Source: Bdellovibrionota bacterium
GTDB taxonomy: Bacteria > Bdellovibrionota_C > UBA2361 > JBIKWN01
Assembly: GCA_044356295.1 (NCBI GenBank)
Contig: JBIKWN010000081.1
Location: 1 to 10,011, forward strand
Length of the DNA: 10,011 nucleotides
Reading direction: 5' to 3'
The translations under genes were made by a program, and so were the position numbers. Positions 372 through 10,011 of the stretch are shown here, one piece after another. Under the pieces are notes generated by a model, which saw only the letters and a list, made by a program, of their open reading frames with translations, made no database searches and was not told where the DNA came from. Position 1 is the first letter of the stretch. Each line of letters opens with the position of its first letter.

Positions 372-1340
372 CTAGCTATCGGCCTTCAGCGCTTCTACCA
401 ATGAAATTACTTCTTGGGCGCATCCCCATGCAACCGTATAACCACCACCTCCGTGACCGTAATTGTGGATGACCGATTTGCCATTTCTATGATGCTCTAC
501 TTCTAATCGAATCTCGTCACGTCCAGGACGTAAGCCAACAGATTCCGAAAGCACGCGACTGTTTTTTAATTCAGGCATGACCAGTTCGCAGCGTTTTTTA
601 AATTCATGCGATTGCTGAGGATTCACCACGAGCGACCAATCGCCAATATCGGCAGTGCCACCTAATAAATAATCATGGGCTCTGGGCAGTATCATCGTGA
701 AATTATCTTTCGACAGAATAATACGAACATCTGGTGAAAATGTATCTTCTTTTGCGACACTCAAAACTTGTCCACGAATAGGGTAAACGGAGGTATCATG
801 CACAAGATGATAGGCCCCTAATCCACAACAATTGATCACTGTATCGTAATGCTCAAATAGTTCTTCTATGGTCTGTATTAATTGAACAAAAATTTGACCG
901 CCTAGAGCACGATACTTATCTTCGATGTATGGCATAAAAGTAGGTACATCAATAACAGGTAGTACAATGCTATATGCTTTCTCGAAAGGTATTCCGTAAT
1001 CGATTCCATCTATAGCGTTCCATGCTTCAACCATTTCTAAAACGCTTAGCGTTTCATCTTCTTCCTCACAAAATCGAAGACAGGTTTGAAACGATACGCC
1101 ACTGAATGGATCTGTCTGAAAATGTTTATATGCATGGAACGATGTAGCAGACCATGCCTTCACTTTATCGAATGGTTTAGTATTATAAGGCCACCAGAAA
1201 GCACCAGCACTCATAGATGTCGTTTGAGCAAGTGCATCTTTAGAATAGATAAGGACGTCATAGCCTTTTTCGAGTAGTCCGATACCGCAACTCAATCCAG
1301 ATATGCCTCGTCCGATAATTGCTATTTTTTGCTTATTCAC
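372..1340 (-). CDS. FAD-dependent oxidoreductase, D-amino acid/D-aspartate oxidase (DAO) family
   Basis: N-terminal Rossmann motif IAIIGRGISG; TTSMSAGAFW; VINCCGLGA..L..D..VYPIRGQV; LGGT; VGLRPGR; DAO signature VIHNYGHGGGGYTVAWGCA; 322 aa; GTG start. Confidence 0.92.
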   Translation of the reverse strand: MNKQKIAIIGRGISGLSCGIGLLEKGYDVLIYSKDALAQTTSMSAGAFWWPYNTKPFDKVKAWSATSFHAYKHFQTDPFSGVSFQTCLRFCEEEDETLSVLEMVEAWNAIDGIDYGIPFEKAYSIVLPVIDVPTFMPYIEDKYRALGGQIFVQLIQTIEELFEHYDTVINCCGLGAYHLVHDTSVYPIRGQVLSVAKEDTFSPDVRIILSKDNFTMILPRAHDYLLGGTADIGDWSLVVNPQQSHEFKKRCELVMPELKNSRVLSESVGLRPGRDEIRLEVEHHRNGKSVIHNYGHGGGGYTVAWGCAQEVISLVEALKADS

Positions 1341-1421
1341 TCTGAGCAGTCTGATTTTATTGTAATTTCATAAAGTAAAACACAACAGTTACAAAACACC
1401 AAAATAAATCTTTAATCGCAA

Positions 1422-1473
1422 TAAAAGTGCGGCATATTGTCGCATTTTTACTAAAATTATATTTAGCTATAAT
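1422..1473 (+). promoter_or_regulatory. Palindromic operator candidate (1422-1450) plus perfect -10 box TATAAT (1468-1473) upstream of the beta-barrel gene
   Basis: TAAAAGTGCGGCA-tat-TGTCGCATTTTTA is a 13-bp inverted repeat with 2 mismatches. TATAAT ends 8 nt before ATG 1482. Confidence 0.5.
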
Positions 1474-1481
1474 TCGTGACT

Positions 1482-2609
1482 ATGAAAAATAATAACTTAA
1501 AAATTTCCGATATAAATAGCTCTTTAAAAATTTTATGTCTTACAGTAGCAATCTGTACTCTTACAAATAATGTTTTTGCAGATGACGATCCTTGCTGTAC
1601 GGGACATATAAAAGCTTTTGCTCCTGCCTCTGTTATGGGAGCTCACCTTCATAAAAAAGGCGAATCAATGTTTGGTTATAGCTATATGTATGGAGCTATG
1701 AGCCAAGGTAAACCTGCAGGTACATCCCTCACCTCGCCTCATGATCATGATCATGATAGCGGACATGGAGGCGAAGAGGACTCCGGACATCATCACGAAA
1801 AATCTTTAAGACATGGTGATGAGCATCATGATGACACCCCTTCTGCTTCCACTTCTCACCAACACACAATGCAACACCAAATGCATATGCTAGAGGGAAT
1901 GTATGGGGTATCAGATAACTTCAACATAATGGCAATGGTTCCATTAGTACAACAAAGAATGAATCATAGAATGCCTGGAGAAGAAGGATTTTCTACTGAA
2001 AATAATGGAATAGGCGATGTTTCACTAACAGGATTACATTCTTTATACAGAGGAGATAATTCTTTGCTGCACGCAGGTTTTGGAATGAGTTTTCCAACTG
2101 CAGATATTGATGATACTGATATTTATCATGGTGTTAATTCAAACCATCCTTACATGATGCAAGTTGGATCTGGAACTTTTGATTTATTACCGTCTTTAAC
2201 GTATCAAGAAACTTTTGGGAAATTTGGATGGGGCCTTCAAGGCTCTATGGTGAATAGATTAGGAAGGAATAATAATGACTATGCTTTAGGAGATAGATAT
2301 AACGTCACTACTTGGGCAGGTTATGAATTAGCTCCAAGATTTAGACTAACTTCTCGTGTAACAGCAAAATTTTGGGATGATGTAACAGGAATGGATGATG
2401 ACATATTGATTAAGTCAAAAATGGCAGATCCAAGATCTCAAGGTGGAAATTTAATTGAAGCAGGAATTGGAGGATTATACTCTTTCTATGCTGCTGGTTT
2501 AGGTCATTCAGTAGGAATTGAAGCTGGATTTCCGATTACTCAAGAAGTTGATTCTGGTTGGATGAACCAAGATTGGATGTTGACTACTACTTGGAGAGTG
2601 GTTTTTTAA
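1482..2609 (+). CDS. Outer-membrane beta-barrel 'transporter' (Phenol_MetA_deg/SphA-like) with His-rich insertion; possible metal uptake
   Basis: Signal peptide ending NVFA; family-like motifs APASVMGAHLHKKGESMFGYSYMY, GIGDVSL, GMSFPT, PYMMQVGSGTFD; alternating beta-strand pattern; C-terminal Phe (WRVVF); His/Asp tract HDHDHD..HHH..HGDEHHDD. ATG 1482 preferred over GTG 1476. Confidence 0.78.
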   Translation: MKNNNLKISDINSSLKILCLTVAICTLTNNVFADDDPCCTGHIKAFAPASVMGAHLHKKGESMFGYSYMYGAMSQGKPAGTSLTSPHDHDHDSGHGGEEDSGHHHEKSLRHGDEHHDDTPSASTSHQHTMQHQMHMLEGMYGVSDNFNIMAMVPLVQQRMNHRMPGEEGFSTENNGIGDVSLTGLHSLYRGDNSLLHAGFGMSFPTADIDDTDIYHGVNSNHPYMMQVGSGTFDLLPSLTYQETFGKFGWGLQGSMVNRLGRNNNDYALGDRYNVTTWAGYELAPRFRLTSRVTAKFWDDVTGMDDDILIKSKMADPRSQGGNLIEAGIGGLYSFYAAGLGHSVGIEAGFPITQEVDSGWMNQDWMLTTTWRVVF

Positions 2610-2638
2610 TTGAAGGCTCACTGCTCTTAGAAATTTCT

Positions 2639-2706
2639 GGTACAGGGTAACTTTCATTGTGATTTAAACTAGTCAAAGTAATAAGTAATTCGTGTTACTT
2701 TGTACC
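2639..2706. repeat. 68-bp hairpin intergenic repeat, copy 1
   Basis: ggtacagggtaactttcattgtgatttaaactagtcaaagtaataagtaattcgtgttactttgtacc; 13-bp imperfect terminal inverted repeats. Confidence 0.97.
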
Positions 2707-2729
2707 AATTGTTTATTTTCGCTTCATTG

Positions 2730-3119
2730 TTATTTGTGGGAACCCTTCTTGAATACTTCTTTAGCAGAGCCAAGAAATTTTGTTGCCAATGCAACAATAG
2801 CTTCTTCAGATAAAGAAAAATAATCACGGACTGATAAATTTCTTGCATTGATACAATCTATCCAAAGCTTTGGGTCGTTGAGGATTTCAATCGTTGCAGC
2901 TTCTCTGACGACATCTTTTGGGGCGTATGCCTCAAGTCCTTTATCTTCAACGATTCGCTTTAACTCTTTCCAGCTATACTCAAGAGCAACCTCAAATGCT
3001 TTAGTAAGAGCCATAAAATAAATGGAACGCTCGGATAAAGATGATGGTTGATATGCATCAATACATCTTTTCAGATCATGTAATGATTCATGCAGCTTTT
3101 TTCTTTTTAGCTCTTCCAT
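2730..3119 (-). CDS. HEPN-domain protein, nucleotidyltransferase substrate-binding (HI0074-like) family; toxin partner, catalytic His apparently substituted
   Basis: Motifs KAFEVALEYSWKELK, APKDVVREA, LWIDCINARNLSVRDY; 129 aa from ATG 3119 with AAGGAAG ribosome-binding site; overlaps the end of the MNT gene. Confidence 0.88.
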   Translation of the reverse strand: MEELKRKKLHESLHDLKRCIDAYQPSSLSERSIYFMALTKAFEVALEYSWKELKRIVEDKGLEAYAPKDVVREAATIEILNDPKLWIDCINARNLSVRDYFSLSEEAIVALATKFLGSAKEVFKKGSHK

Positions 3120-3675
3120 AAAGACTTCCTTTAAAAAACGAAAAACTTGCATAATCACCACAGAGATACTTCACAGGTGAATCAAAATCATCAAAGAAAG
3201 ATGAAGGTGCTTCATCAAAATTTAAGATACTGATCTTTACCGGCAAATTATCAAATGAACTATCACATTGCTCTTTTATATCTAAGAAATCTTGCCAAAA
3301 AAGTGGTACCTCACCACCAGTCAATCCAATATCATAATCTGAATATTTTCTTGCTTTGCCTGTAACTCTGCTGCCGTACAAAAAAGCTCCTATCTTACAA
3401 TTGTTTCTTGTACTTCTATTAGTTACCTTTTTTAATGTTTCAATAATCTCTTTCAGATCATCACTTGTCTCTTCAGATAAAAGTGACATCGGCGCAGTAT
3501 CTAATGCCTTGCATATGGAAAGATATGCTTCAGTGAATGGAGAGAGTTCACCACGTACATATGGATAGATCGTATTTCTGTGCAGACCAGATGCAATTGC
3601 TAATGCAGAAAAACTATTAACCCCAGAAGAAGCCATGCATTGTTCAAGTTTTACTTTGTCGATTTTAATCTTCAT
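3088..3675 (-). CDS. XRE-like HTH fused to minimal nucleotidyltransferase (MNT) domain; antitoxin of an MNT-HEPN pair
   Basis: HTH-like SFSALAIASGLHRNTIYPYVRG...ICKALD...LL; Pol-beta-type motif FLYGSRVTGKARKYSDYDIG. Start placed at ATG 3675 because the region up to 3705 is occupied by a promoter/operator palindrome. Confidence 0.87.
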   Translation of the reverse strand: MKIKIDKVKLEQCMASSGVNSFSALAIASGLHRNTIYPYVRGELSPFTEAYLSICKALDTAPMSLLSEETSDDLKEIIETLKKVTNRSTRNNCKIGAFLYGSRVTGKARKYSDYDIGLTGGEVPLFWQDFLDIKEQCDSSFDNLPVKISILNFDEAPSSFFDDFDSPVKYLCGDYASFSFFKGSLYGRAKKKKAA

Positions 3676-3681
3676 AATTTC

Positions 3682-3724
3682 AATATAGCATAATATTTTA
3701 GGCATAGTAGCATAAAATATTATG
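3682..3724 (-). promoter_or_regulatory. Operator palindrome overlapping an extended -10 promoter of the TA operon
   Basis: Perfect 12-bp inverted repeat CATAATATTTTA (3689-3700) / TAAAATATTATG (3713-3724) with a 12-bp spacer. On the minus strand TGcTATATT ends 6 nt before ATG 3675. Confidence 0.65.
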
Positions 3725-3778
3725 ATTATTTAGGTGACGCTCACCTTTTCAAGGTTATCGTCCCTAATACCACTATTT

Positions 3779-3846
3779 GGCTCAGGGTAACTTTCATTGT
3801 GATTTAAACTACTGAAATCATTAAGTAATCCAAGTTACCTTGTACC
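3779..3846. repeat. 68-bp hairpin intergenic repeat, copy 2
   Basis: ggctcagggtaactttcattgtgatttaaactactgaaatcattaagtaatccaagttaccttgtacc; same orientation as copy 1. Confidence 0.97.
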
Positions 3847-3865
3847 AATTATTTCTCGTAAGAAA

Positions 3866-4969
3866 TTAGTCGGGTTTAGTAGCCACGATACTATAACCAC
3901 CATCGTGAAAGTATTCTTTAACATCTATAAATCCAACGTTACTAAAATCTTCCGGCAATAAAACAGTATAATTTGCCAAACAAGATGGAGCTAAATCTTC
4001 ATCTTCATAGTGAATAAGAGCAAATATACAACGCTCTTTATTATCTTCGTATTTTTGAATAATTTTTTGTTTTTCTTCAGCATTTTTAGGATCTGCTTTG
4101 CTAAGCTCAGCTTCCAACTTAGATTCTAATGAATAAAAAGTTTTAATAGCCAAATCGTAATACGTTACAGGTTCAACCGAAACAAAATGAAATGTTTTTC
4201 CACCGGCCTTTAGAAGGTTAAAACAATTTGCCACTGTTTTCTGTGCTTGTTGCGGGTTTAACACCGCTTCGCAAAGAACATTAACAGAATAAACAAAATC
4301 TTCTTTTCCATGAAAATCATCTTCTATTTCAGCGGTAAAATCTTGTGTCTGAATAATTCCTTTTAGTAAATGGGAAAGTGCAGATTCAGAATCATCTGAC
4401 CTATCATTATCAATTCCAAGAATGAATCCACCTAAACTTCCTAGAAGCATCAGATCGTATGGTATTTGTCCGCATCCAAACTCAACTATACTCCTACCTG
4501 AAAAATAGTTTGAAATCTTAGCGTGCCTTTCTTCAAAAGTTCCTTCAAACGCATCACATAAAAGGCATAGTTGAAAAATAAAATGTTCAGATACAGCATC
4601 AGATTTATGCAATAAAGTAATGTCATTGGATCTTGTTGCATTGAATGGAACATTGGACCTGTAAAGCCACTGGGCAAATTCCTTATTTTCACGGAATAAG
4701 GAGAGCGATCTTGTTGGATGTAAAATTCTATATGAATCTGCACTCTGCGAATTATTTTCCGAAGAACTATAGTGCTCCATTAATGATGTAGCTATTAATT
4801 GATTGGGGCACGTCCCTCTTCGTTCTTCAAATTCGCGTTTGATGTGATCTAATGTAGCGATTTTTTCTTGATTAGATAGTCGAGTCAGAGCCAAGTCTAA
4901 ATCAATCGAATCTGGAATTCTTGATATAAGTGAACTATAGGGGCGCTCTGCGTCGATACTGCTATGCAT
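3866..4969 (-). CDS. Class I SAM-dependent methyltransferase domain protein with N-terminal extension
   Basis: Motif I GRSIVEFGCG; acidic strand-2 end ILGIDND; DFVYSVNVL; NCFNLLKAGGKTFH; terminal strand YSIVATK. Substrate unknown. Confidence 0.75.
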   Translation of the reverse strand: MHSSIDAERPYSSLISRIPDSIDLDLALTRLSNQEKIATLDHIKREFEERRGTCPNQLIATSLMEHYSSSENNSQSADSYRILHPTRSLSLFRENKEFAQWLYRSNVPFNATRSNDITLLHKSDAVSEHFIFQLCLLCDAFEGTFEERHAKISNYFSGRSIVEFGCGQIPYDLMLLGSLGGFILGIDNDRSDDSESALSHLLKGIIQTQDFTAEIEDDFHGKEDFVYSVNVLCEAVLNPQQAQKTVANCFNLLKAGGKTFHFVSVEPVTYYDLAIKTFYSLESKLEAELSKADPKNAEEKQKIIQKYEDNKERCIFALIHYEDEDLAPSCLANYTVLLPEDFSNVGFIDVKEYFHDGGYSIVATKPD

Positions 4970-5031
4970 TATAGACTATTCTAAAAGATTATTGAGGCTA
5001 CTCAAGGGCAGGCTCAGGAGATAACGATTTT

Positions 5032-5099
5032 GGTTCAGGGTAACTTTCATTGTGATTTAACTTACTGAAAGTATTAAATAATCCGAGTTACCTTGTACC
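5032..5099. repeat. 68-bp hairpin intergenic repeat, copy 3
   Basis: ggttcagggtaactttcattgtgatttaacttactgaaagtattaaataatccgagttaccttgtacc; 2 nt from the stop codon of 5102..5719. Confidence 0.97.
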
Positions 5100-5101
5100 T
5101 A

Positions 5102-5719
5102 TTATTGATTAATGCTTGGGCGCCACTCCGTTGCAAAATTAACAATTGAAGGGGTGCGGTTTAGGGCAGGTAGGTTAAGTGGCTTGCCTCCATCAGTGAA
5201 TAAAGATTTATATCTGAATGACAGTCCAGTTGAGGTGGTAATCCTTAAGGTGCGAGATTGACGCACAGTATCGAAATCTGGTTTATTCGTTGTGAGTCGA
5301 AGATGCACAGAGCAACCTGAAGAGTTACCATCGACATCAGTACAGATACCTCGTTCAAAGGTCACATCAAGTCTTTTTGTCCCTTGTCGTTTTTTGGAGT
5401 TATGAGTGTCTCTTATGACGACAAGTCCTACGTTATCATTTCTGCGAACACGCACTGCGCCACGCGGTGTTTTCAGCTCCAGTGATTGCCGCTGAGAGGG
5501 AACATCTTTGATGGAAGGGAAAAATTTTGAGTAGTAACCATTAATGTCTCCTGCTCGAATAGTGAGTAATTTCTTACTAAAATCCGCGCCACGTGGCGAA
5601 AAAAAGATTCCGTAATCAATGAAATCTTGAGCTGTGAAAGTGTATGGAGCTGCAAAAACCGCGCTATCGGTCATGACGAAAACAGATAGCGAAAGGAAGA
5701 GTTTATTTAGTAATTTCAT
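5102..5719 (-). CDS. Secreted hypothetical protein, paralog A
   Basis: Signal peptide ending AVFA; basic, beta-rich, one Cys pair; gap-free alignment to 8278..8892 with many synonymous differences supports a real gene. Confidence 0.88.
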   Translation of the reverse strand: MKLLNKLFLSLSVFVMTDSAVFAAPYTFTAQDFIDYGIFFSPRGADFSKKLLTIRAGDINGYYSKFFPSIKDVPSQRQSLELKTPRGAVRVRRNDNVGLVVIRDTHNSKKRQGTKRLDVTFERGICTDVDGNSSGCSVHLRLTTNKPDFDTVRQSRTLRITTSTGLSFRYKSLFTDGGKPLNLPALNRTPSIVNFATEWRPSINQ

Positions 5720-5815
5720 ATGAAGAGATCCCTTTTAAAATATGCTGCGATATTATTACACCAATTATTATCCTTTTTCACTAGAAAAGCAAAGTTATTT
5801 TTTTAAAAAAATTCT

Positions 5816-5883
5816 GGCACAGGGTAACTTTCATTGTGATTTAAACTACTGAAAGTATTAAGTAATCCAAGTTACCTTGTACC
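5816..5883. repeat. 68-bp hairpin intergenic repeat, copy 4
   Basis: ggcacagggtaactttcattgtgatttaaactactgaaagtattaagtaatccaagttaccttgtacc. Confidence 0.97.
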
Positions 5884-6007
5884 TATTATTTCTTTTTCCT
5901 AACGCTACTCAGAGAATAGCGCTGAAAATCAGAGTATGTATCCGAGATTATGTAACCCATCAAAAATAAACAGTTTTTTTTCTAAACGGGTAGCGTCACT
6001 GTTACTG

Positions 6008-7318
6008 TTATTTTGGCTTCCTGCGTAATCTGTAAACACTAAGAGCCCTCATAGGTATCGCATCACCCTTATAATACAGTGTCACTGCAGTTGGTTCTTG
6101 CAAGCCTTCATATCGTTCCAAGGATTTCTCAACTTGCACTCGATTCGTTCGGTATGTTGTTGAAGGCTCTTGCATCGGTAAAAAACCAACTAATGAATTC
6201 ATTCGACAAAGTTTATGGAGAAGTGCAACTAGTTCATCAATACATTCATGTATATCAACTCGCGATAAGAAATGTTGATTCGGATTGATACGACATATGA
6301 CACCTCTGCGACCAAGGCGATGGAACAGATGAAGCTGTATATTACCAATCGGCTTATTGGATTGCTCTTCAAACAGTACAAGTTGGAGAAAATTTTTACT
6401 ATGCCATCCCTGCAGATCATCCGACGAGCATAAATCAGAAGAAGCCCGTGAATAAAAACTCGCGGTATCTTTTCGAAGCTGCGCATAGACGCCGATTGTT
6501 TGTTTCTGCTGAATTCTTCCATCTTGCGCCACGAGCGTGAATCGCATTCCTTGCTCTGGGATCTGCAAGATTGCGCAGTCCTGCGAGCGGTCCTGTATTT
6601 TAATGAATTGAGCAAAGGTACAAAATTTTGCTCTGTCATCCGATGGCGGAAAGCTCATAAGAGACGCAACATACTCTGAGCACTCATCCAGTATCTTATC
6701 ATTTTTATTAGCAAGCATATCCACCGAGCGGCATCGTGCATTTCTTACAAAGTTTTTGAGTGCCTCAGGATGAGCGCCGTACCATTGAACTGTCATCGTT
6801 AACGCATCATCAACGCGCAGTATCACTGACGCCTCAGACAAAAGTACTCTCAGGAACTGAGAAGGATTTACTGGTGGGTTATCCTCCAGGATCTTGATAA
6901 TCTGTTCGAAGCGCAGTGCACCAAACTGCTTATAAATCGCACTACATTCGCGAAAACTTTGTCTATCAAAACGTAACAATTTTTTAGCCGTCTTCGGATC
7001 GACAGGTGTGCTGAATTCGTGCAAGACCATCCGTGCATTGGACAGCTGCTTATCTCTTGTAATGCGGATTTCATCATTGATAAGAGATGAAAGCAGCTCT
7101 ACCTGCGTGCGTCTATCAAAATCAGGATACAGTATTGAAAGTTGCTTCAGTGCTTTTTCAAACTCGTACGAGCGTGCATAAGAAAAAATTTGCCGTACGG
7201 CAGATCGATTCCTGTTTTGATTCGGGAATGAAGTCTTTTCTTTCGTCTGTAAATGGATGTCAGCAGTATGCATCGTAACTATACGTAGGATATTACCTGC
7301 AGGGTGGTTCCTACTCAA
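6008..7318 (-). CDS. Hypothetical protein (about 420-436 aa); start uncertain (TTG 7318 or ATG 7273)
   Basis: Long ORF filling the interval between repeat copies 4 and 5; helical-looking N-terminal half, alpha/beta-looking C-terminal half; no recognised motif. Confidence 0.72.
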   Translation of the reverse strand: MSRNHPAGNILRIVTMHTADIHLQTKEKTSFPNQNRNRSAVRQIFSYARSYEFEKALKQLSILYPDFDRRTQVELLSSLINDEIRITRDKQLSNARMVLHEFSTPVDPKTAKKLLRFDRQSFRECSAIYKQFGALRFEQIIKILEDNPPVNPSQFLRVLLSEASVILRVDDALTMTVQWYGAHPEALKNFVRNARCRSVDMLANKNDKILDECSEYVASLMSFPPSDDRAKFCTFAQFIKIQDRSQDCAILQIPEQGMRFTLVAQDGRIQQKQTIGVYAQLRKDTASFYSRASSDLCSSDDLQGWHSKNFLQLVLFEEQSNKPIGNIQLHLFHRLGRRGVICRINPNQHFLSRVDIHECIDELVALLHKLCRMNSLVGFLPMQEPSTTYRTNRVQVEKSLERYEGLQEPTAVTLYYKGDAIPMRALSVYRLRRKPK

Positions 7319-7368
7319 ATAGCGGTCACATTTTCATCCTACTGCTCGCAATTTACGATAGCGATTTT

Positions 7369-7407
7369 GGTACATGGCAACTGTCATTGTGATTAAAACT
7401 TTTGACC
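7369..7407. repeat. Internally deleted, diverged repeat copy 5 (39 bp)
   Basis: ggtacatggcaactgtcattgtgattaaaacttttga|cc with the usual flanks (cgatttt left, aattattt right); about 29 bp including most of the right arm are missing. Confidence 0.88.
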
Positions 7408-7443
7408 AATTATTTTTTCTCAGACTTAAATCTATCTTTAATA

Positions 7444-7830
7444 TTAATAAGGCTGAGGGATAGCAGCTTCTACTGGTTTTACCTTAGGGCAAACATATCC
7501 AGGAGAACCCCCATCACCACACCATTTCCACATGCAAAGTCCCTGACAGTATAGCTCTAAGTCACCTTTAGGAATGCCAGTTTTACAAGCAGCAGAAGCT
7601 TTACACTGAGCTAGACATTGAGTACACGCGTCCTTCCCTTTGTTAGATGCACACCACTTATTGATCCCTTGCTCCAAGGCATTGCAGCATGATTTGTCTT
7701 TGGGCGTACCCTCACCATCATCACACCAACTCTTAATAAAAGTCTCACCGTTAACGACAACTTCAGAGTAGGAAAAAGAGGTTACAACTAAAGTGAGCAC
7801 GAAAACTGCCAATAAGCTAAAATACTTCAT
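7444..7830 (-). CDS. Small secreted cysteine-rich protein (12 Cys)
   Basis: Signal peptide MKYFSLLAVFVLTLVVTSFSYS; GGAG ribosome-binding site upstream; Cys patterns CC, CxxCxxxC, CxxxCxxxxC. Confidence 0.82.
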   Translation of the reverse strand: MKYFSLLAVFVLTLVVTSFSYSEVVVNGETFIKSWCDDGEGTPKDKSCCNALEQGINKWCASNKGKDACTQCLAQCKASAACKTGIPKGDLELYCQGLCMWKWCGDGGSPGYVCPKVKPVEAAIPQPY

Positions 7831-8054
7831 AGGTTCACTCCGGTATGTAGATTGTTGTAACTAGATATGATTCTAGGCTTCAAGCGTTAAATCCCCAAGC
7901 AAAATCTTTAATGTGGTAACCGTATAATATCATTACACTTAGTTTTCAAATTTCTAAGAATTATTCGTAGTACCGCCATTGCAAAGCTTGCGTACTATCA
8001 ATATCGTCCTTCCGACATTAACTTCAATTTTAAAATTAGTGAGAAGACGATTTT

Positions 8055-8122
8055 AGTACAGGGTAACTTTCATCGTGAGTTAAACTACTGACAGTATTAA
8101 GTAATCCGAGTTACCTTATACA
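8055..8122. repeat. 68-bp hairpin intergenic repeat, copy 6
   Basis: agtacagggtaactttcatcgtgagttaaactactgacagtattaagtaatccgagttaccttataca; same orientation, more diverged ends. Confidence 0.95.
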
Positions 8123-8174
8123 AATTATATCTTGCCCTACTTTTTTTCCTTCCAGCTTTGGATGTTGTCAAAAT

Positions 8175-8190
8175 AGTTACATTGTACCAG
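8175..8190. repeat. Isolated repeat arm (half-site) upstream of paralog B
   Basis: agttacattgtaccag versus the reverse complement of the copy-4 end, agttaccctgtgccag; it marks the start of homology with the paralog A leader. Confidence 0.6.
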
Positions 8191-8277
8191 TTTTTTTCTT
8201 GCTTTTTTCTAGTGAGGAAGCTCATATTTAGTGTAAAAGTATAGCAGTATTTAACCTCTCCAAAGGACTTCCTTTTT

Positions 8278-8892
8278 ATGAGATATCTTAAGAATCTTTG
8301 TCTTATCCTCTCTGTATCACTACTCTCTGGTACGGCAGTTTTTGCAGATCCATATACATTCACTAAACAAGATTTCATTGAATACGGAATCTATTTTTCG
8401 CCACGTAGCACGGTTCGCAGCACTAAATTACTTACTCTTCGTGCAGGGGACATTACAGGTTACTATGCAAAGTTCTTCCCTTCCATCAAAGATGTCCCTT
8501 CGCAGCGGCAAGCACTACAGCTTACAACACTTCGTGGCGCTGTACGTGTCCGCAGAAATGATGATACAGGTCTAGTCGTTATCCGAGATACTCATAACTC
8601 TAAAAAACGCATAGGTACAAAAAAACTTGATGTGACTTTTGAAAATGGTATCTGCACTGATGCCGCTGGGACTTCTTCACCTTGTGCTGTGCATCTGCTT
8701 CTGACCACGAACAAACCTGATAAGAATACGCTGCGCCAATCACGTACGTTGCGCATTACGACATCGACAGGTCTTTCATTCAGATATAAATCTTTATCCT
8801 ACGACGGTGGAAAGCCTCTTAACCTCCCAGCCCTTAATCGTACTCCTGCAATTAACAACTATGCTTGGGAGTGGCGACCAAGCGTTAAGTAG
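8278..8892 (+). CDS. Secreted hypothetical protein, paralog B (inverted relative to the array)
   Basis: About 75% identical to paralog A by manual count (about 50 differences in 204 aa, 12 of them in the signal peptide); AAAGGA upstream. Confidence 0.88.
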   Translation: MRYLKNLCLILSVSLLSGTAVFADPYTFTKQDFIEYGIYFSPRSTVRSTKLLTLRAGDITGYYAKFFPSIKDVPSQRQALQLTTLRGAVRVRRNDDTGLVVIRDTHNSKKRIGTKKLDVTFENGICTDAAGTSSPCAVHLLLTTNKPDKNTLRQSRTLRITTSTGLSFRYKSLSYDGGKPLNLPALNRTPAINNYAWEWRPSVK

Positions 8893-8944
8893 CAAGTATA
8901 CTTGATTATAGATCGTGTGCGCAGCAGAGAGCGTTATTTGTTCT

Positions 8945-8965
8945 ATGAAAGTCCGTCCCTGTACC
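8945..8965. repeat. Inverted degenerate repeat remnant downstream of paralog B
   Basis: atgaaagt-ccgt-ccctgtacc versus the reverse-complement consensus atgaaagt-ta-ccctgtacc; weaker similarity at about 8889-8908 (gtagcaagtatacttgatta versus gtacaaggtaacttggatta). Confidence 0.65.
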
Positions 8966-8974
8966 TACGTCTTC

Positions 8975-9676
8975 CTATCTATCAATGATAAGAAATGCGA
9001 TCTTTGCAGGATCATTACTGCTGAACTCTTCAATTTTGCTTAAGGTGCAACCATCTACTGCTGCAAGTGATAGAACTGCTTTGCCACTACTAACAGAGCT
9101 TTGTCGCACGAGAAGCTCTTTGCCTTGGCAGGTAGCATAGAGCCCAAACTGTTTTGACTCGCTCTGCTGTGTTGCATATTGAATTGTAGCAATACATCCT
9201 TGCGACGCGGCATCATCGGTACGAATAATCTGCCTATCCTCAATAATATATGAGCTACAGTTCGTTAGAAAAACACGAGACTCAACAAAGGTGGTTTTAT
9301 AAAGTGCTTGTTTCTGTTCTTGTATCGTTAATTTAATGACTGAGTCGTTCGAAAGCTTTGCATTATAGCGAAGCGAAATTGTCTGTGGTTGTGTCTGATC
9401 AGGCTGGAATTCAATTGAAAAATTGTTGCCCTCCGGCGCAAGCATTTCAAAGGTGCCATCTGCGTTTGTCGTTGAGATACGTGCTTGACCAATATCATTA
9501 GACATCACGATGGCTCCATCTTTGATAGGAGCTTGCATGCGGTTACGAGCATATCCTTGAATAGATCGATTGCTACCAGTATCGCCTCCTGAAGATCCGA
9601 TGGTGCCGCCACCACATCCTGCGAGTATAAGAATCATATATAGCAATAGATTGTGAACGGAAATTATTTTACTCAT
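8975..9676 (-). CDS. Lipoprotein with carboxypeptidase-regulatory-like (prealbumin-type beta-sandwich) domain
   Basis: Lipobox LAG-C followed by GGGTIGSSGG; SIQGYARNRMQAPIKDGAIVM...TTNADGTF pattern; ATGA overlap with the upstream gene. Confidence 0.75.
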   Translation of the reverse strand: MSKIISVHNLLLYMILILAGCGGGTIGSSGGDTGSNRSIQGYARNRMQAPIKDGAIVMSNDIGQARISTTNADGTFEMLAPEGNNFSIEFQPDQTQPQTISLRYNAKLSNDSVIKLTIQEQKQALYKTTFVESRVFLTNCSSYIIEDRQIIRTDDAASQGCIATIQYATQQSESKQFGLYATCQGKELLVRQSSVSSGKAVLSLAAVDGCTLSKIEEFSSNDPAKIAFLIIDR

Positions 9677-10011
9677 GGTGTTTTTTTCCTCCCTCGTTTT
9701 CGCGGAACAATAGCAGTAGTAGGCTGTGGTTTTCTTACCACTGCAAATGTTCCAAATGATACATATCCTTGACCGCTTTTATCAGGTTGATGCGTAATAT
9801 CAAGATCCTTTGACCCAACAAAGTCTCGCACTTCTTTGTGCATGGCTTCACCTTTCTTAAGGAGCCACGCTGTAACCTCTTCCAATGCATCAAGCGATAC
9901 ATTGTCAAAGTAGGTCCTAAGCTGTAATTGCGGTATCGGTTCATTGCCCCACACGTTTCGCTCAGTCGCTTCAAGGAGTGAATGGATATCTTCGCTGACG
10001 GCAGTCATGGC
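9673..10011 (-). CDS. C-terminal part of a DUF6502-like protein (5' end outside window)
   Basis: Frame is open to the edge. The pattern L..TERNV....P.L..RTYFDNV..A......L..........F....D.......VSFGTF resembles, from memory, the DUF6502 C-terminus, a family often found upstream of lipoprotein or outer-membrane genes. Confidence 0.6.
   Translation of the reverse strand, partial: AMTAVSEDIHSLLEATERNVWGNEPIPQLQLRTYFDNVSLDALEEVTAWLLKKGEAMHKEVRDFVGSKDLDITHQPDKSGQGYVSFGTFAVVRKPQPTTAIVPRKRGRKKTP

What the first reader, a model, noticed from the sequence alone, without database searches (positions are those of the whole stretch)
2639..8965. Gene-cassette array delimited by a non-canonical 68-bp hairpin repeat
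Seen: six co-oriented copies start at 2639, 3779, 5032, 5816, 7369 and 8055 (periods 1140, 1253, 784, 1553, 686 bp). Each interval holds exactly one gene or one TA pair, all on the minus strand, with stop codons 2-124 nt from the next repeat. The cargo is functionally unrelated (TA, methyltransferase, secreted proteins, unknown protein). Known: one gene per unit, common orientation, hairpin sites and TA cassettes typify integron arrays, including integrase-less CALINs. However, these sites lack the RYYYAAC/GTTRRRY attC boxes. Inference: a cassette capture and shuffling system using a different site, with its recombinase encoded elsewhere.
Basis: partly seen in the sequence, partly recalled or inferred. 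Interest (0 to 1): 0.88.

Follow-up and report, generated by a model that had tools for sequence, protein, structure and literature searches.

The report
Miniature transposon repeats bracketing accessory genes
The repeats are real, but they are small copies of the ends of a transposase gene found elsewhere in the genome (a REPIN/RAYT-type system), not integron sites; what is unusual is that they sit at the edges of swappable accessory gene blocks.

Summary
Six co-oriented copies lie at the stated coordinates, five complete and one internally deleted. The 5.5-kb array holds 6 of the genome's 30 copies.

The integron-like reading is only partly supported. The genome has a true integron on another contig, with IntI and canonical attC sites. 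A covariance model built from those attC sites finds untrained attCs but none of the repeats.

The repeat's 13-17-nt inverted arms are the terminal inverted repeats of a 1.3-kb element. That element encodes a 321-aa RAYT-like HUH/Y1 transposase (G000:C79). The best profile hit is NCBIfam 'REP-associated tyrosine transposase', the best fold match is PDB 4ER8, and the HUH and Tyr residues are invariant.

Copies also lie singly beside housekeeping genes, and their orientation relative to those genes varies.

One part of the cassette idea survives. In this genome and a sister species, repeats or arm remnants mark the exact edges of blocks that differ between genomes. These blocks include toxin-antitoxin pairs and unknown genes, and some are 97-100% identical across otherwise diverged species.

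Verdict: a new member of the REPIN/RAYT kind. Whether gene blocks are mobilised is open.

The parts
2636..2710 (+). REPIN-like repeat copy 1 (subfamily A); arms GGTACAGGGTAAC / GTTACTTTGTACC
   Evidence: E=8.5e-19
2730..3161 (-). HepT-like toxin (nucleotidyltransferase substrate-binding / HepT)
   Evidence: PF08780 1.3e-16, PF01934 8.5e-6; TIGR01987
3088..3705 (-). MntA-like nucleotidyltransferase antitoxin with N-terminal HTH (the true start may lie further in)
   Evidence: PF18765, PF01909, HTH_26; NF047752, below cut-off
3776..3850 (+). REPIN-like repeat copy 2
   Evidence: E=4e-21
3866..4969 (-). 367-aa protein of unknown family (not a supported methyltransferase)
5029..5103 (+). REPIN-like repeat copy 3
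5104..5803 (-). Self-contained block: 205-aa gene (5102-5719; N-terminus not read here, signal peptide inferred from its 76% paralogue at 8278-8892) plus upstream region. It is 97% nt identical to G002:C134, where its neighbours differ. Homology stops at the repeat edges.
5813..5887 (+). REPIN-like repeat copy 4
6008..7318 (-). 436-aa protein of unknown family. In G002 its 80% aa orthologue lies directly beside the DAO orthologue, with no repeat.
7366..7422 (+). Degraded repeat copy 5 (central ~28 nt deleted)
   Evidence: E=6e-4
7444..7830 (-). 128-aa protein of unknown family with an N-terminal signal-peptide-like segment (read by eye)
8052..8126 (+). REPIN-like repeat copy 6
8139..8197 (-). 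Remnant of the left end and 5' flank of the RAYT-like element, including an arm at 8176-8190
   Evidence: 86% to G002:C212:8046-8104
8278..8892 (+). 204-aa secreted-type protein, inverted paralogue (76% aa) of 5102-5719
   Evidence: (I1)
8937..8963 (-). Degraded repeat arm (..CCCTGTACC) at the boundary with conserved flank genes. The same arm remnant sits at the orthologous place in G002:C8.
372..2609 (.). Left flank: FAD-dependent oxidoreductase (372-1340, -) and an outer-membrane beta-barrel-like gene (1476-2609, +). The latter is absent from the G002 locus.
8975..10011 (-). Right flank, conserved in G002:C8 (87% nt): 233-aa gene and a DUF6502 gene that continues into contig C28

Best explanation
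The 68-85-nt repeat is a non-autonomous miniature element of the REPIN/MITE type. It has two 13-17-nt inverted arms around a ~42-nt spacer. These arms are the terminal inverted repeats of a 1.3-kb element encoding a 321-aa RAYT-like HUH/Y1 (IS200-like) transposase at G000:C79:2655-3620. A 98% identical copy in sister species G002 is flanked by a perfect 22-nt inverted repeat. Shown here: arm identity, the fold and motifs of the transposase, dispersal of about 30 copies limited to this genus among those searched, and placement at the edges of variable blocks. Inferred: the transposase acts in trans on the folded single strand of the miniature element, as in IS200/IS605 and REP/RAYT systems. New copies then land beside or within existing arms. 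The window is therefore an accessory region, where insertions are tolerated and where arms promote rearrangement. It has filled with co-oriented copies, so each gene looks like a cassette. It is not an integron array or a CALIN.
For: Arms and transposase: inverted arms flank the transposase gene in G000 and in G002 (22 nt, 100% complementary, 1235 nt apart). They also accompany a truncated copy (C8), a fragment (C113) and the window remnant at 8139-8197. The only NCBIfam hit is NF047646 'REP-associated tyrosine transposase' (E=8e-10, model positions 1-144 of 146). Pfam Y1_Tnp is weak. H60, H62, Y121, N125 and P126 are invariant in 26 homologues. The AF2 model has pLDDT 89.7, and its best PDB match is 4ER8, RAYT bound to a REP hairpin (E=3e-6, target TM 0.71), followed by ISDra2 and IS608 TnpA. 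JGI names 4 of 108 homologues 'REP element-mobilizing transposase RayT'. Dispersal: 30 hits on 12 contigs. Solitary copies lie beside IleRS, flagellins, an OEP gene, a sugar-nucleotide dehydratase/epimerase gene (GDP-mannose 4,6-dehydratase family) and a desaturase gene. Of 41 genomes of the order, the repeat is found only in G000 and G002. Not attC. [quoted passage not shown]
Against: The transposase scores below the curated cut-offs (38.8 against 80 bits in NCBIfam; 19.3 against 23 in Pfam). It is twice the size of classical RAYTs. The arms are not themselves palindromes and carry no GTAG/CGTC tag. There are only about 30 copies, not hundreds. The gene is 98% identical between species whose sampled orthologues are mostly 60-85% aa identical, and it has truncated extra copies. 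That is IS-like rather than the single-copy, vertically inherited classical RAYT. In another genus (G018) a homologue has similar terminal repeats but no miniature copies. No target duplication or excision product of the miniature element was seen. No transposition was observed (no joints). Clustering of 6 copies in consecutive intergenic regions, strict co-orientation within clusters and block edges at arms are not explained by random insertion alone.
Confidence: 0.75

Rival explanations
1. Cargo mobilisation. Any DNA lying between two co-oriented repeats, or between two arms, mimics the transposase element itself (arm-gene-arm). It is excised and inserted as a unit by the RAYT-like enzyme. 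The arrays would then be true, HUH-driven cassette arrays that trade toxin-antitoxin and other accessory genes.
For: A repeat-gene-repeat block is duplicated at two loci, with homology ending at the outer repeat edges (C113 and C23, 85% aa). The 205-aa gene block is bounded exactly by repeats here and is 97% nt identical in G002 at an unrelated locus, where an arm-like remnant sits at the same junction. A 2.1-kb block plus repeat is 98.5% identical between G000:C90 and G002:C232, with different neighbours. In G002 a co-oriented array with two toxin-antitoxin pairs lies on two contig ends, one beside MltA and one beside the M48 peptidase. In G000 these two genes are 152 nt apart with no repeat. 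The two G002 contig ends share a ~30-nt direct repeat containing TTGTACC. G002:C24 has an 871-nt gene-plus-repeat insert with an 8-bp duplication, compared with an empty site in a related strain. Arrays lie at different chromosomal sites in the two species.
Against: All evidence is comparative. No circle, empty-site read or alternative junction was found in four public runs (contigs only). IS200/IS605-type transposition makes no target duplication, so the 8-bp case points to another process. Gene orientation relative to the repeats is inconsistent. Several edges lie inside the repeat rather than at its ends, which fits homologous or illegitimate recombination equally well.
Confidence: 0.25
2. 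Passive recombination hotspots. The repeats spread as selfish miniature elements. Block turnover at their edges is then caused by RecA-dependent or illegitimate recombination between ~85-nt copies after DNA uptake, without the transposase.
For: Breakpoints occur inside repeats and at solo arm remnants. There are tandem arm duplications. Synteny breaks at a repeat beside the 171-aa gene. Copies are 76-100% identical, enough for short-homology recombination (established knowledge).
Against: It does not explain why junctions repeatedly fall at the same nucleotide next to the arm end. It also does not explain the target-like TTGTACC repeat at the MltA and M48 contig ends.
Confidence: 0.35
3. Divergent attC sites (a CALIN) recombined by the genome's own integron integrase.
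For: An intact IntI is present (429 bits, cut-off 265). The arms carry AAC...GTT at their inner ends. Toxin-antitoxin cargo and co-orientation resemble cassette arrays.
Against: A model from 10 local attC sites recovers 3 untrained attCs (55.5, 40.1 and 19.8 bits). It gives no repeat more than 11.2 bits (E=5) in 92 kb holding about 30 repeats. There is no two-box structure, no extrahelical bases and no covariation (against 11 of 16 covarying pairs in true attCs). Solitary copies lie beside housekeeping genes. The arms equal the ends of a HUH transposase element.
Confidence: 0.03
4. A host regulatory element (terminator, promoter, mRNA stabiliser or protein-binding site) kept at gene ends by selection.
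For: The location is intergenic, often near 3' ends or between convergent genes. A sigma-70-like TTGTGA-N16-TATTAA lies within the spacer (read by eye).
Against: No terminator-like or promoter-like site was called at any repeat. There is no Rfam match and no structural covariation. Orientation relative to genes varies. Presence differs between close strains.
Confidence: 0.07

Closest known systems
REPIN-RAYT systems (Pseudomonas fluorescens SBW25 GI-GIII REPINs; E. coli REP/BIME with TnpA-REP, PDB 4ER8)
   Same: Two inverted repeats with a spacer of tens of nt can fold into a hairpin. They are extragenic and dispersed. The transposase gene is flanked by the same repeats in inverted orientation. 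The transposase has a HUH/Y1 fold and motifs. Partial copies lie beside full copies (PMC3116915 and PMC5581495, passages read; fold).
   Different: The arms are not palindromes and lack a GTAG/CGTC tag. There are about 30 copies, not hundreds. The transposase has 321 aa with a ~180-aa C-terminal extension. It is near-identical across two diverged species and has truncated extra copies. Copies concentrate in variable regions, whereas Pseudomonas REPs mark stable regions and mobile DNA lies in 'REP deserts' (PMC3390384, passages read).
IS200/IS605 family (IS608, ISDra2 TnpA)
   Same: HUH/Y1 catalytic domain (ranks 2-23). The presumed single-strand mechanism with a folded end is an inference.
   Different: IS200/IS605 elements have no terminal inverted repeats, whereas this element has 22-nt ones. 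No TnpB partner was seen beside the gene.
Integron attC arrays and CALINs
   Same: Co-oriented sites at about 0.7-1.5 kb spacing, one gene or toxin-antitoxin pair per unit, unrelated cargo, and content that varies between relatives.
   Different: The attC model test fails. Units carry promoter-like sites of their own (consensus matches only). Sites also occur singly beside housekeeping genes. Gene orientation relative to the site is not fixed. The true integron of this genome uses other sites.
MITEs and MITE-flanked composite elements
   Same: A short non-coding element with the terminal inverted repeats of a full-length element. Pairs can bracket genes.
   Different: The parent encodes a HUH/Y1 enzyme, not a DDE enzyme. 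No consistent target-site duplication was seen around the miniature copies.
pdif (XerC/XerD) modules of Acinetobacter plasmids (recalled, no call)
   Same: Small gene modules, often toxin-antitoxin pairs, bounded by short recombination sites.
   Different: pdif sites are 28-bp 11-6-11 sites in alternating orientation. Here the sites are 68-85-nt direct repeats tied to a HUH transposase. No Xer-type core was looked for.

Membership tests
Integron attC / CALIN | Matches an attC structure-and-sequence model | tested here: not met
   Model R1 was built from 10 canonical attCs of this genome's integron. It finds 3 untrained attCs (55.5, 40.1, 19.8 bits), but the best repeat scores 11.2 bits (E=5.3) and no repeat in the window scores. 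IntegronFinder's own model was not available.
Integron attC / CALIN | R''/R' boxes RYYYAAC/GTTRRRY, with L boxes, an unpaired central spacer and extrahelical bases | tested here: not met
   the boxes read GGGTAAC/GTTACCT and only AAC/GTT is kept. There is one continuous 15-17-bp stem; no covariation. True attCs here show 11 of 16 covarying pairs.
Integron attC / CALIN | Sites confined to cassette arrays, with fixed polarity to the cassette ORF | tested here: not met
   solitary copies lie beside IleRS, flagellin, OEP and other housekeeping genes. Genes are opposite to the repeat strand in the window and on the same strand in C23, C12 and the G002 arrays.
REPIN / REP-RAYT system | Doublet of inverted repeats with a short spacer, able to form a hairpin | tested here: met
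   (92.7% of 697 stem cells pair). The predicted folds are weak.
REPIN / REP-RAYT system | Extragenic, dispersed and over-represented in the genome | tested here: met
   30 hits on 12 contigs; all hits listed there lie between ORFs or overlap an ORF end by at most 1 nt, apart from a short 93-aa ORF at 8097-8378 that I judge doubtful; 17 in G002. The copy number is low for the family.
REPIN / REP-RAYT system | Transposase gene flanked by the same repeats in inverted orientation | tested here: met
   (G000:C79). (G002: 22-nt perfect inverted repeat whose 16-nt core equals the repeat arm).
REPIN / REP-RAYT system | Transposase is a HUH/Y1 enzyme of the RAYT type | tested here: met
   (only hit NF047646, E=8e-10, but 38.8 bits is below the 80-bit cut-off). 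(H60, H62, Y121, N125 and P126 invariant). (best PDB match 4ER8, target TM 0.71).
REPIN / REP-RAYT system | Each REP is a short palindrome with a GTAG or CGTC tag | tested here: not met
   the arms have no internal palindrome or tag. The second RAYT-like gene of the genome (C8:3343-4317) does have GTAG-tagged flanking repeats.
REPIN / REP-RAYT system | Single-copy, vertically inherited transposase | tested here: inconclusive
   There is one full copy per genome, plus a truncated copy and fragments. It is 98% identical between species whose sampled orthologues are mostly 60-85% identical. Homologues are multi-copy in other genomes of the order.
REPIN / REP-RAYT system | The miniature element moves (excision or insertion seen) | tested here: inconclusive
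   a full copy in one strain where two others have a 16-nt arm remnant; no joints in the contigs of 4 runs. No raw reads were available.
MITE | Terminal inverted repeats shared with a full-length element, plus a target-site duplication | tested here: inconclusive
   The terminal repeats are shared. No common duplication was seen at 36 aligned copies. One 8-bp duplication flanks a gene-plus-repeat insert.

The most novel reading that the evidence does not exclude
A RAYT-like HUH transposase and its miniature repeats act as a gene-cassette system that is independent of integrons. Blocks bounded by arms (toxin-antitoxin pairs, secreted proteins, unknown genes) would be cut out and inserted next to existing arms as single-stranded units. 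This would build co-oriented arrays at different chromosomal sites in sister species and pass blocks between species. It would give REPIN/RAYT systems, whose benefit to the host is debated, a concrete role in accessory-gene flux.
Probability: 0.25. Interest if true: 0.75.

Novelty: new member of a known kind. Interest (0 to 1): 0.45.

Why it matters
An apparent new integron-like site turns out to be a REPIN/RAYT-type system, so no new class of recombination site needs to be claimed. It also extends that system to an uncultured lake-water lineage. Earlier notes of this scan, not checked here, call it Bdellovibrionota. The transposase family is long (about 320 aa), carries terminal inverted repeats, and is common in the order (35 of 41 genomes). 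It seems unstudied: the two literature searches listed no paper whose title or abstract start concerns such repeats in Bdellovibrio-like bacteria or REPIN-bounded gene blocks. If the block edges at arms reflect transposase action, this would be a HUH-based route for moving toxin-antitoxin and other accessory genes. That can be tested directly with a two-repeat marker construct.

Tried and rejected
1; a degenerate 16-base pattern scanned over genome contigs gave only single chance hits in unrelated taxa.

2. I compared repeat orientation with GC or AT skew and coding-strand bias of the contigs. GC skew showed no consistent relation. AT skew had the opposite sign to the repeat strand in most clusters, but local coding bias confounds it. 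The result is inconclusive.

3; in four public lake-water runs (Logan contigs only), contigs of run X2 bridge the same repeat-gene junctions. There are no joints. Loose ends at repeat edges lead to other genomic copies. This gives no evidence on excision either way.

4; a sequence search of the transposase against PDB found nothing. The fold search was needed.

5; exact flanking 16-mers of the C79 copy occur only 2-5 times, because its arms differ slightly from the miniature copies. The exact-16-mer test used in the RAYT literature is therefore weak here.

6; a homologue's arms in another genus (G018) are not amplified (14 hits against 5 in the control). Miniature copies are thus not a general trait of the family.

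7; the small unknown ORFs beside repeats are not one family. Only two paralogue pairs were found, so they are not a hidden transposase.

8; no Rfam family, terminator-like site or promoter-like site was found at the repeats.

9. An Xer/pdif-type reading was considered from memory and set aside, because the sites are long direct repeats tied to a HUH element. No Xer core search was run.


Full report
OBSERVATION. The window is the whole of contig C27 of a 2.96-Mb, 128-contig, 38.6% G+C draft genome. One search recovers the six co-oriented copies with the stated spacings. Five are complete. The copy at 7369 lacks about 28 central bases. Each of the five intervals holds one minus-strand gene or a HepT/MntA-type toxin-antitoxin pair. 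Beyond the sixth copy the picture changes. The gene at 8278-8892 is on the + strand and is an inverted 76% paralogue of 5102-5719. A degraded arm lies at about 8937-8963. 'Methyltransferase' for the 367-aa protein is not supported. With a profile of 41 copies the genome has 30 hits (E<0.01) on 12 contigs, six of them in this 5.5-kb stretch. So the clustering is real.

NOT AN INTEGRON SITE. The genome has a genuine integron on contig C38. IntI scores 429 bits against a cut-off of 265. It is followed by an array of canonical attC sites with ..TAAC and GTTA.. ends and 11 of 16 covarying pairs. I built a covariance model from ten of these sites and searched nine sources (92 kb) without filters. 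It found three further, untrained attC sites in that array (55.5, 40.1 and 19.8 bits). No repeat scored above 11.2 bits (E=5.3), and none scored in the window. The repeat's 17-bp stem shows no covariation: 92.7% of cells pair, against 92.4% in shuffles, with one compensatory change. Single-strand folds are weak. There is no Rfam match and no terminator-like or promoter-like call at the repeats.

BEHAVIOUR ELSEWHERE IN THE GENOME. Outside the window, copies lie singly or in small groups. Their neighbours include isoleucyl-tRNA synthetase, two flagellin genes, an outer-membrane efflux gene, a sugar-nucleotide dehydratase/epimerase gene (best Pfam match GDP-mannose 4,6-dehydratase), a fatty-acid desaturase gene and a patatin/Omp85 gene. 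They often sit between convergent genes. Orientation relative to the neighbouring gene is not fixed. It is opposite in the window and the same in C23, in the first unit of C12 and in the G002 arrays. Within clusters the copies are co-oriented: 6 of 6, 5 of 5, 3 of 3 and 3 of 3 on four contigs, with one + and one - copy on C63. Among 41 genomes of the order the repeat was found only in G000 (22 matches) and in the same-genus G002 (17). The third genome of the genus is 62% complete and had none. One metagenome scan found four contigs, all from strains close to G002.

WHAT THE REPEAT IS. A scan for solo arms led to G000:C79:2655-3620. This 321-aa ORF is flanked by arms in inverted orientation. 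Its 98% identical counterpart in G002 lies between perfect 22-nt inverted repeats 1235 nt apart, and their 16-nt core equals the repeat arm. The protein's only NCBIfam hit is 'REP-associated tyrosine transposase'. That hit has E=8e-10 and covers positions 1-144 of the 146-position model, but at 38.8 bits it is below the 80-bit cut-off. Pfam Y1_Tnp is weak. In 26 homologues H60, H62 (the HUH motif), Y121, N125 and P126 are invariant. The AlphaFold model has pLDDT 89.7 and pTM 0.88. Its best PDB match is 4ER8, the E. coli REP-associated transposase on a REP hairpin (E=3e-6, target TM 0.71). ISDra2 and IS608 transposases come next. JGI names 4 of 108 homologues 'REP element-mobilizing transposase RayT'. 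A truncated second copy (C8), a fragment (C113) and window 8139-8197 all keep the same arm plus 5' flank. The repeat is therefore a miniature derivative of this element: a doublet of its ends around a 42-nt spacer. That is the definition of a REPIN (PMC3116915, passages read; PMC5581495, passages read).

DIFFERENCES FROM CLASSICAL REPIN/RAYT SYSTEMS. The arms are not palindromes and have no GTAG/CGTC tag. There are about 30 copies. The enzyme is twice the usual length. It is nearly identical in two species whose sampled orthologues are mostly 60-85% aa identical. The family is common in the order (35 of 41 genomes) and multi-copy in some of them. One homologue in another genus has similar end repeats but no miniature copies. 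In Pseudomonas, REPs mark stable regions and mobile DNA lies in REP deserts (PMC3390384, passages read). Here the copies concentrate in variable DNA.

WHAT REMAINS OF THE CASSETTE IDEA. Repeats or arm remnants mark the exact edges of blocks that differ between genomes.

(a) In G002 the orthologues of the 436-aa gene and the DAO gene are adjacent, with no repeat. Window 1341-6007 is thus extra here.

(b) The 205-aa gene block (5104-5803) is 97% nt identical in G002 beside lptE. Homology stops at the repeat edges, and an arm-like remnant sits at the same junction there.

(c) A repeat-gene-repeat block is duplicated on C113 and C23, with homology ending at the outer repeat edges.

(d) A 2.1-kb block plus repeat is 98.5% identical between G000:C90 and G002:C232, with different neighbours. 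The repeat is truncated in G002.

(e) In G002 a co-oriented array with HigB-like and ParDE pairs lies on two contig ends, one beside MltA and one beside the M48 peptidase. These two genes are 152 nt apart in G000. The two G002 ends share a ~30-nt direct repeat that contains TTGTACC, the end of the arm. That the two contigs join is an inference.

(f) G002:C24 carries an 871-nt gene-plus-repeat insert with an 8-bp duplication. A related strain has the empty site, and another strain has a full repeat where these two have a 16-nt arm.

(g) The same arm remnant bounds the conserved 233/244-aa gene in both species, with different DNA beyond it.

These cases fit either transposase-driven movement of arm-bounded blocks or ordinary recombination at dispersed repeats. 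I could not tell the two apart. Contigs of four public runs show the same junctions in a second sample and no joints.

VERDICT. The site is not attC and not a new kind of recombination site. It is a REPIN/MITE-like offshoot of a RAYT-like HUH transposase element, a new member of a known kind. But the element also behaves as a dispersed intergenic repeat. The most novel reading still open is cargo mobilisation by the transposase, which I put at about 0.25.

Noticed in passing
G000:C38:54143-66569 (L005:7490-18000): A complete canonical integron: intI on the minus strand, then at least 13 attC sites of three or more sequence families on the + strand. Three copies of a 29-nt perfect palindrome (ATCTGTGGTTATT..AATAACCACAGAT) lie between intI and the first cassette. 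They may be a regulator-binding array.
   Followed up: partly
G000:C8:3343-4317 (L162): A second RAYT-like gene (324 aa, 27% identical to the first; NF047646 60 bits, Y1_Tnp 31 bits, above its cut-off). It is flanked by GTAG-tagged 16-mers (AGTAGCCCCGGTACAG), three upstream and two inverted downstream. These share GGTACAG with the window's repeat arms.
   Followed up: partly
window 9673-10011 and G000:C28:2-475: One DUF6502 gene is split across the end of C27 and the start of C28, as judged from the intact G002 orthologue. The two contigs are therefore adjacent, with a gap of about 135 nt. A seventh co-oriented repeat (C28:1891) then lies 3.8 kb beyond the window.
   Followed up: partly
window 5884-5980: The non-coding stretch between repeat 4 and the stop codon of the 436-aa gene is 90% identical to the 5' region of a DUF4143 AAA-ATPase gene in G002:C64:47677-47773. 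It may be the stump of a lost block.
   Followed up: no
G002:C134:3600-3796 (L028): Two tandem tRNA-3'-end-like fragments (..GTTCGAATCC..) lie beside the 97% identical copy of the 205-aa gene. This resembles the tRNA-end repeats noted earlier in this genome.
   Followed up: no
G000 genome-wide; end of C38 (L005:19935-20000): The most frequent 16-mers of the genome (CGCGACCTTCGCGTTA, 88 occurrences counting both strands) belong to a different repeat family. This is probably the palindromes of 9-mer arrays reported earlier by this scan.
   Followed up: no
G015, G027, G031: Homologues of the 321-aa transposase are multi-copy in some genomes of the order: six equal-scoring copies in G015, and 18 and 19 matches in G027 and G031. 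In those genomes the family behaves as an active insertion sequence.
   Followed up: no
window 3725-3752, 4978-5005, 5752-5781 (minus strand): Sigma-70-like consensus matches lie between each upstream repeat and the start codons of the MntA-like, 367-aa and 205-aa genes. The units may therefore carry their own promoters. There are fewer matches than in shuffles, so this carries no statistical weight.
   Followed up: no
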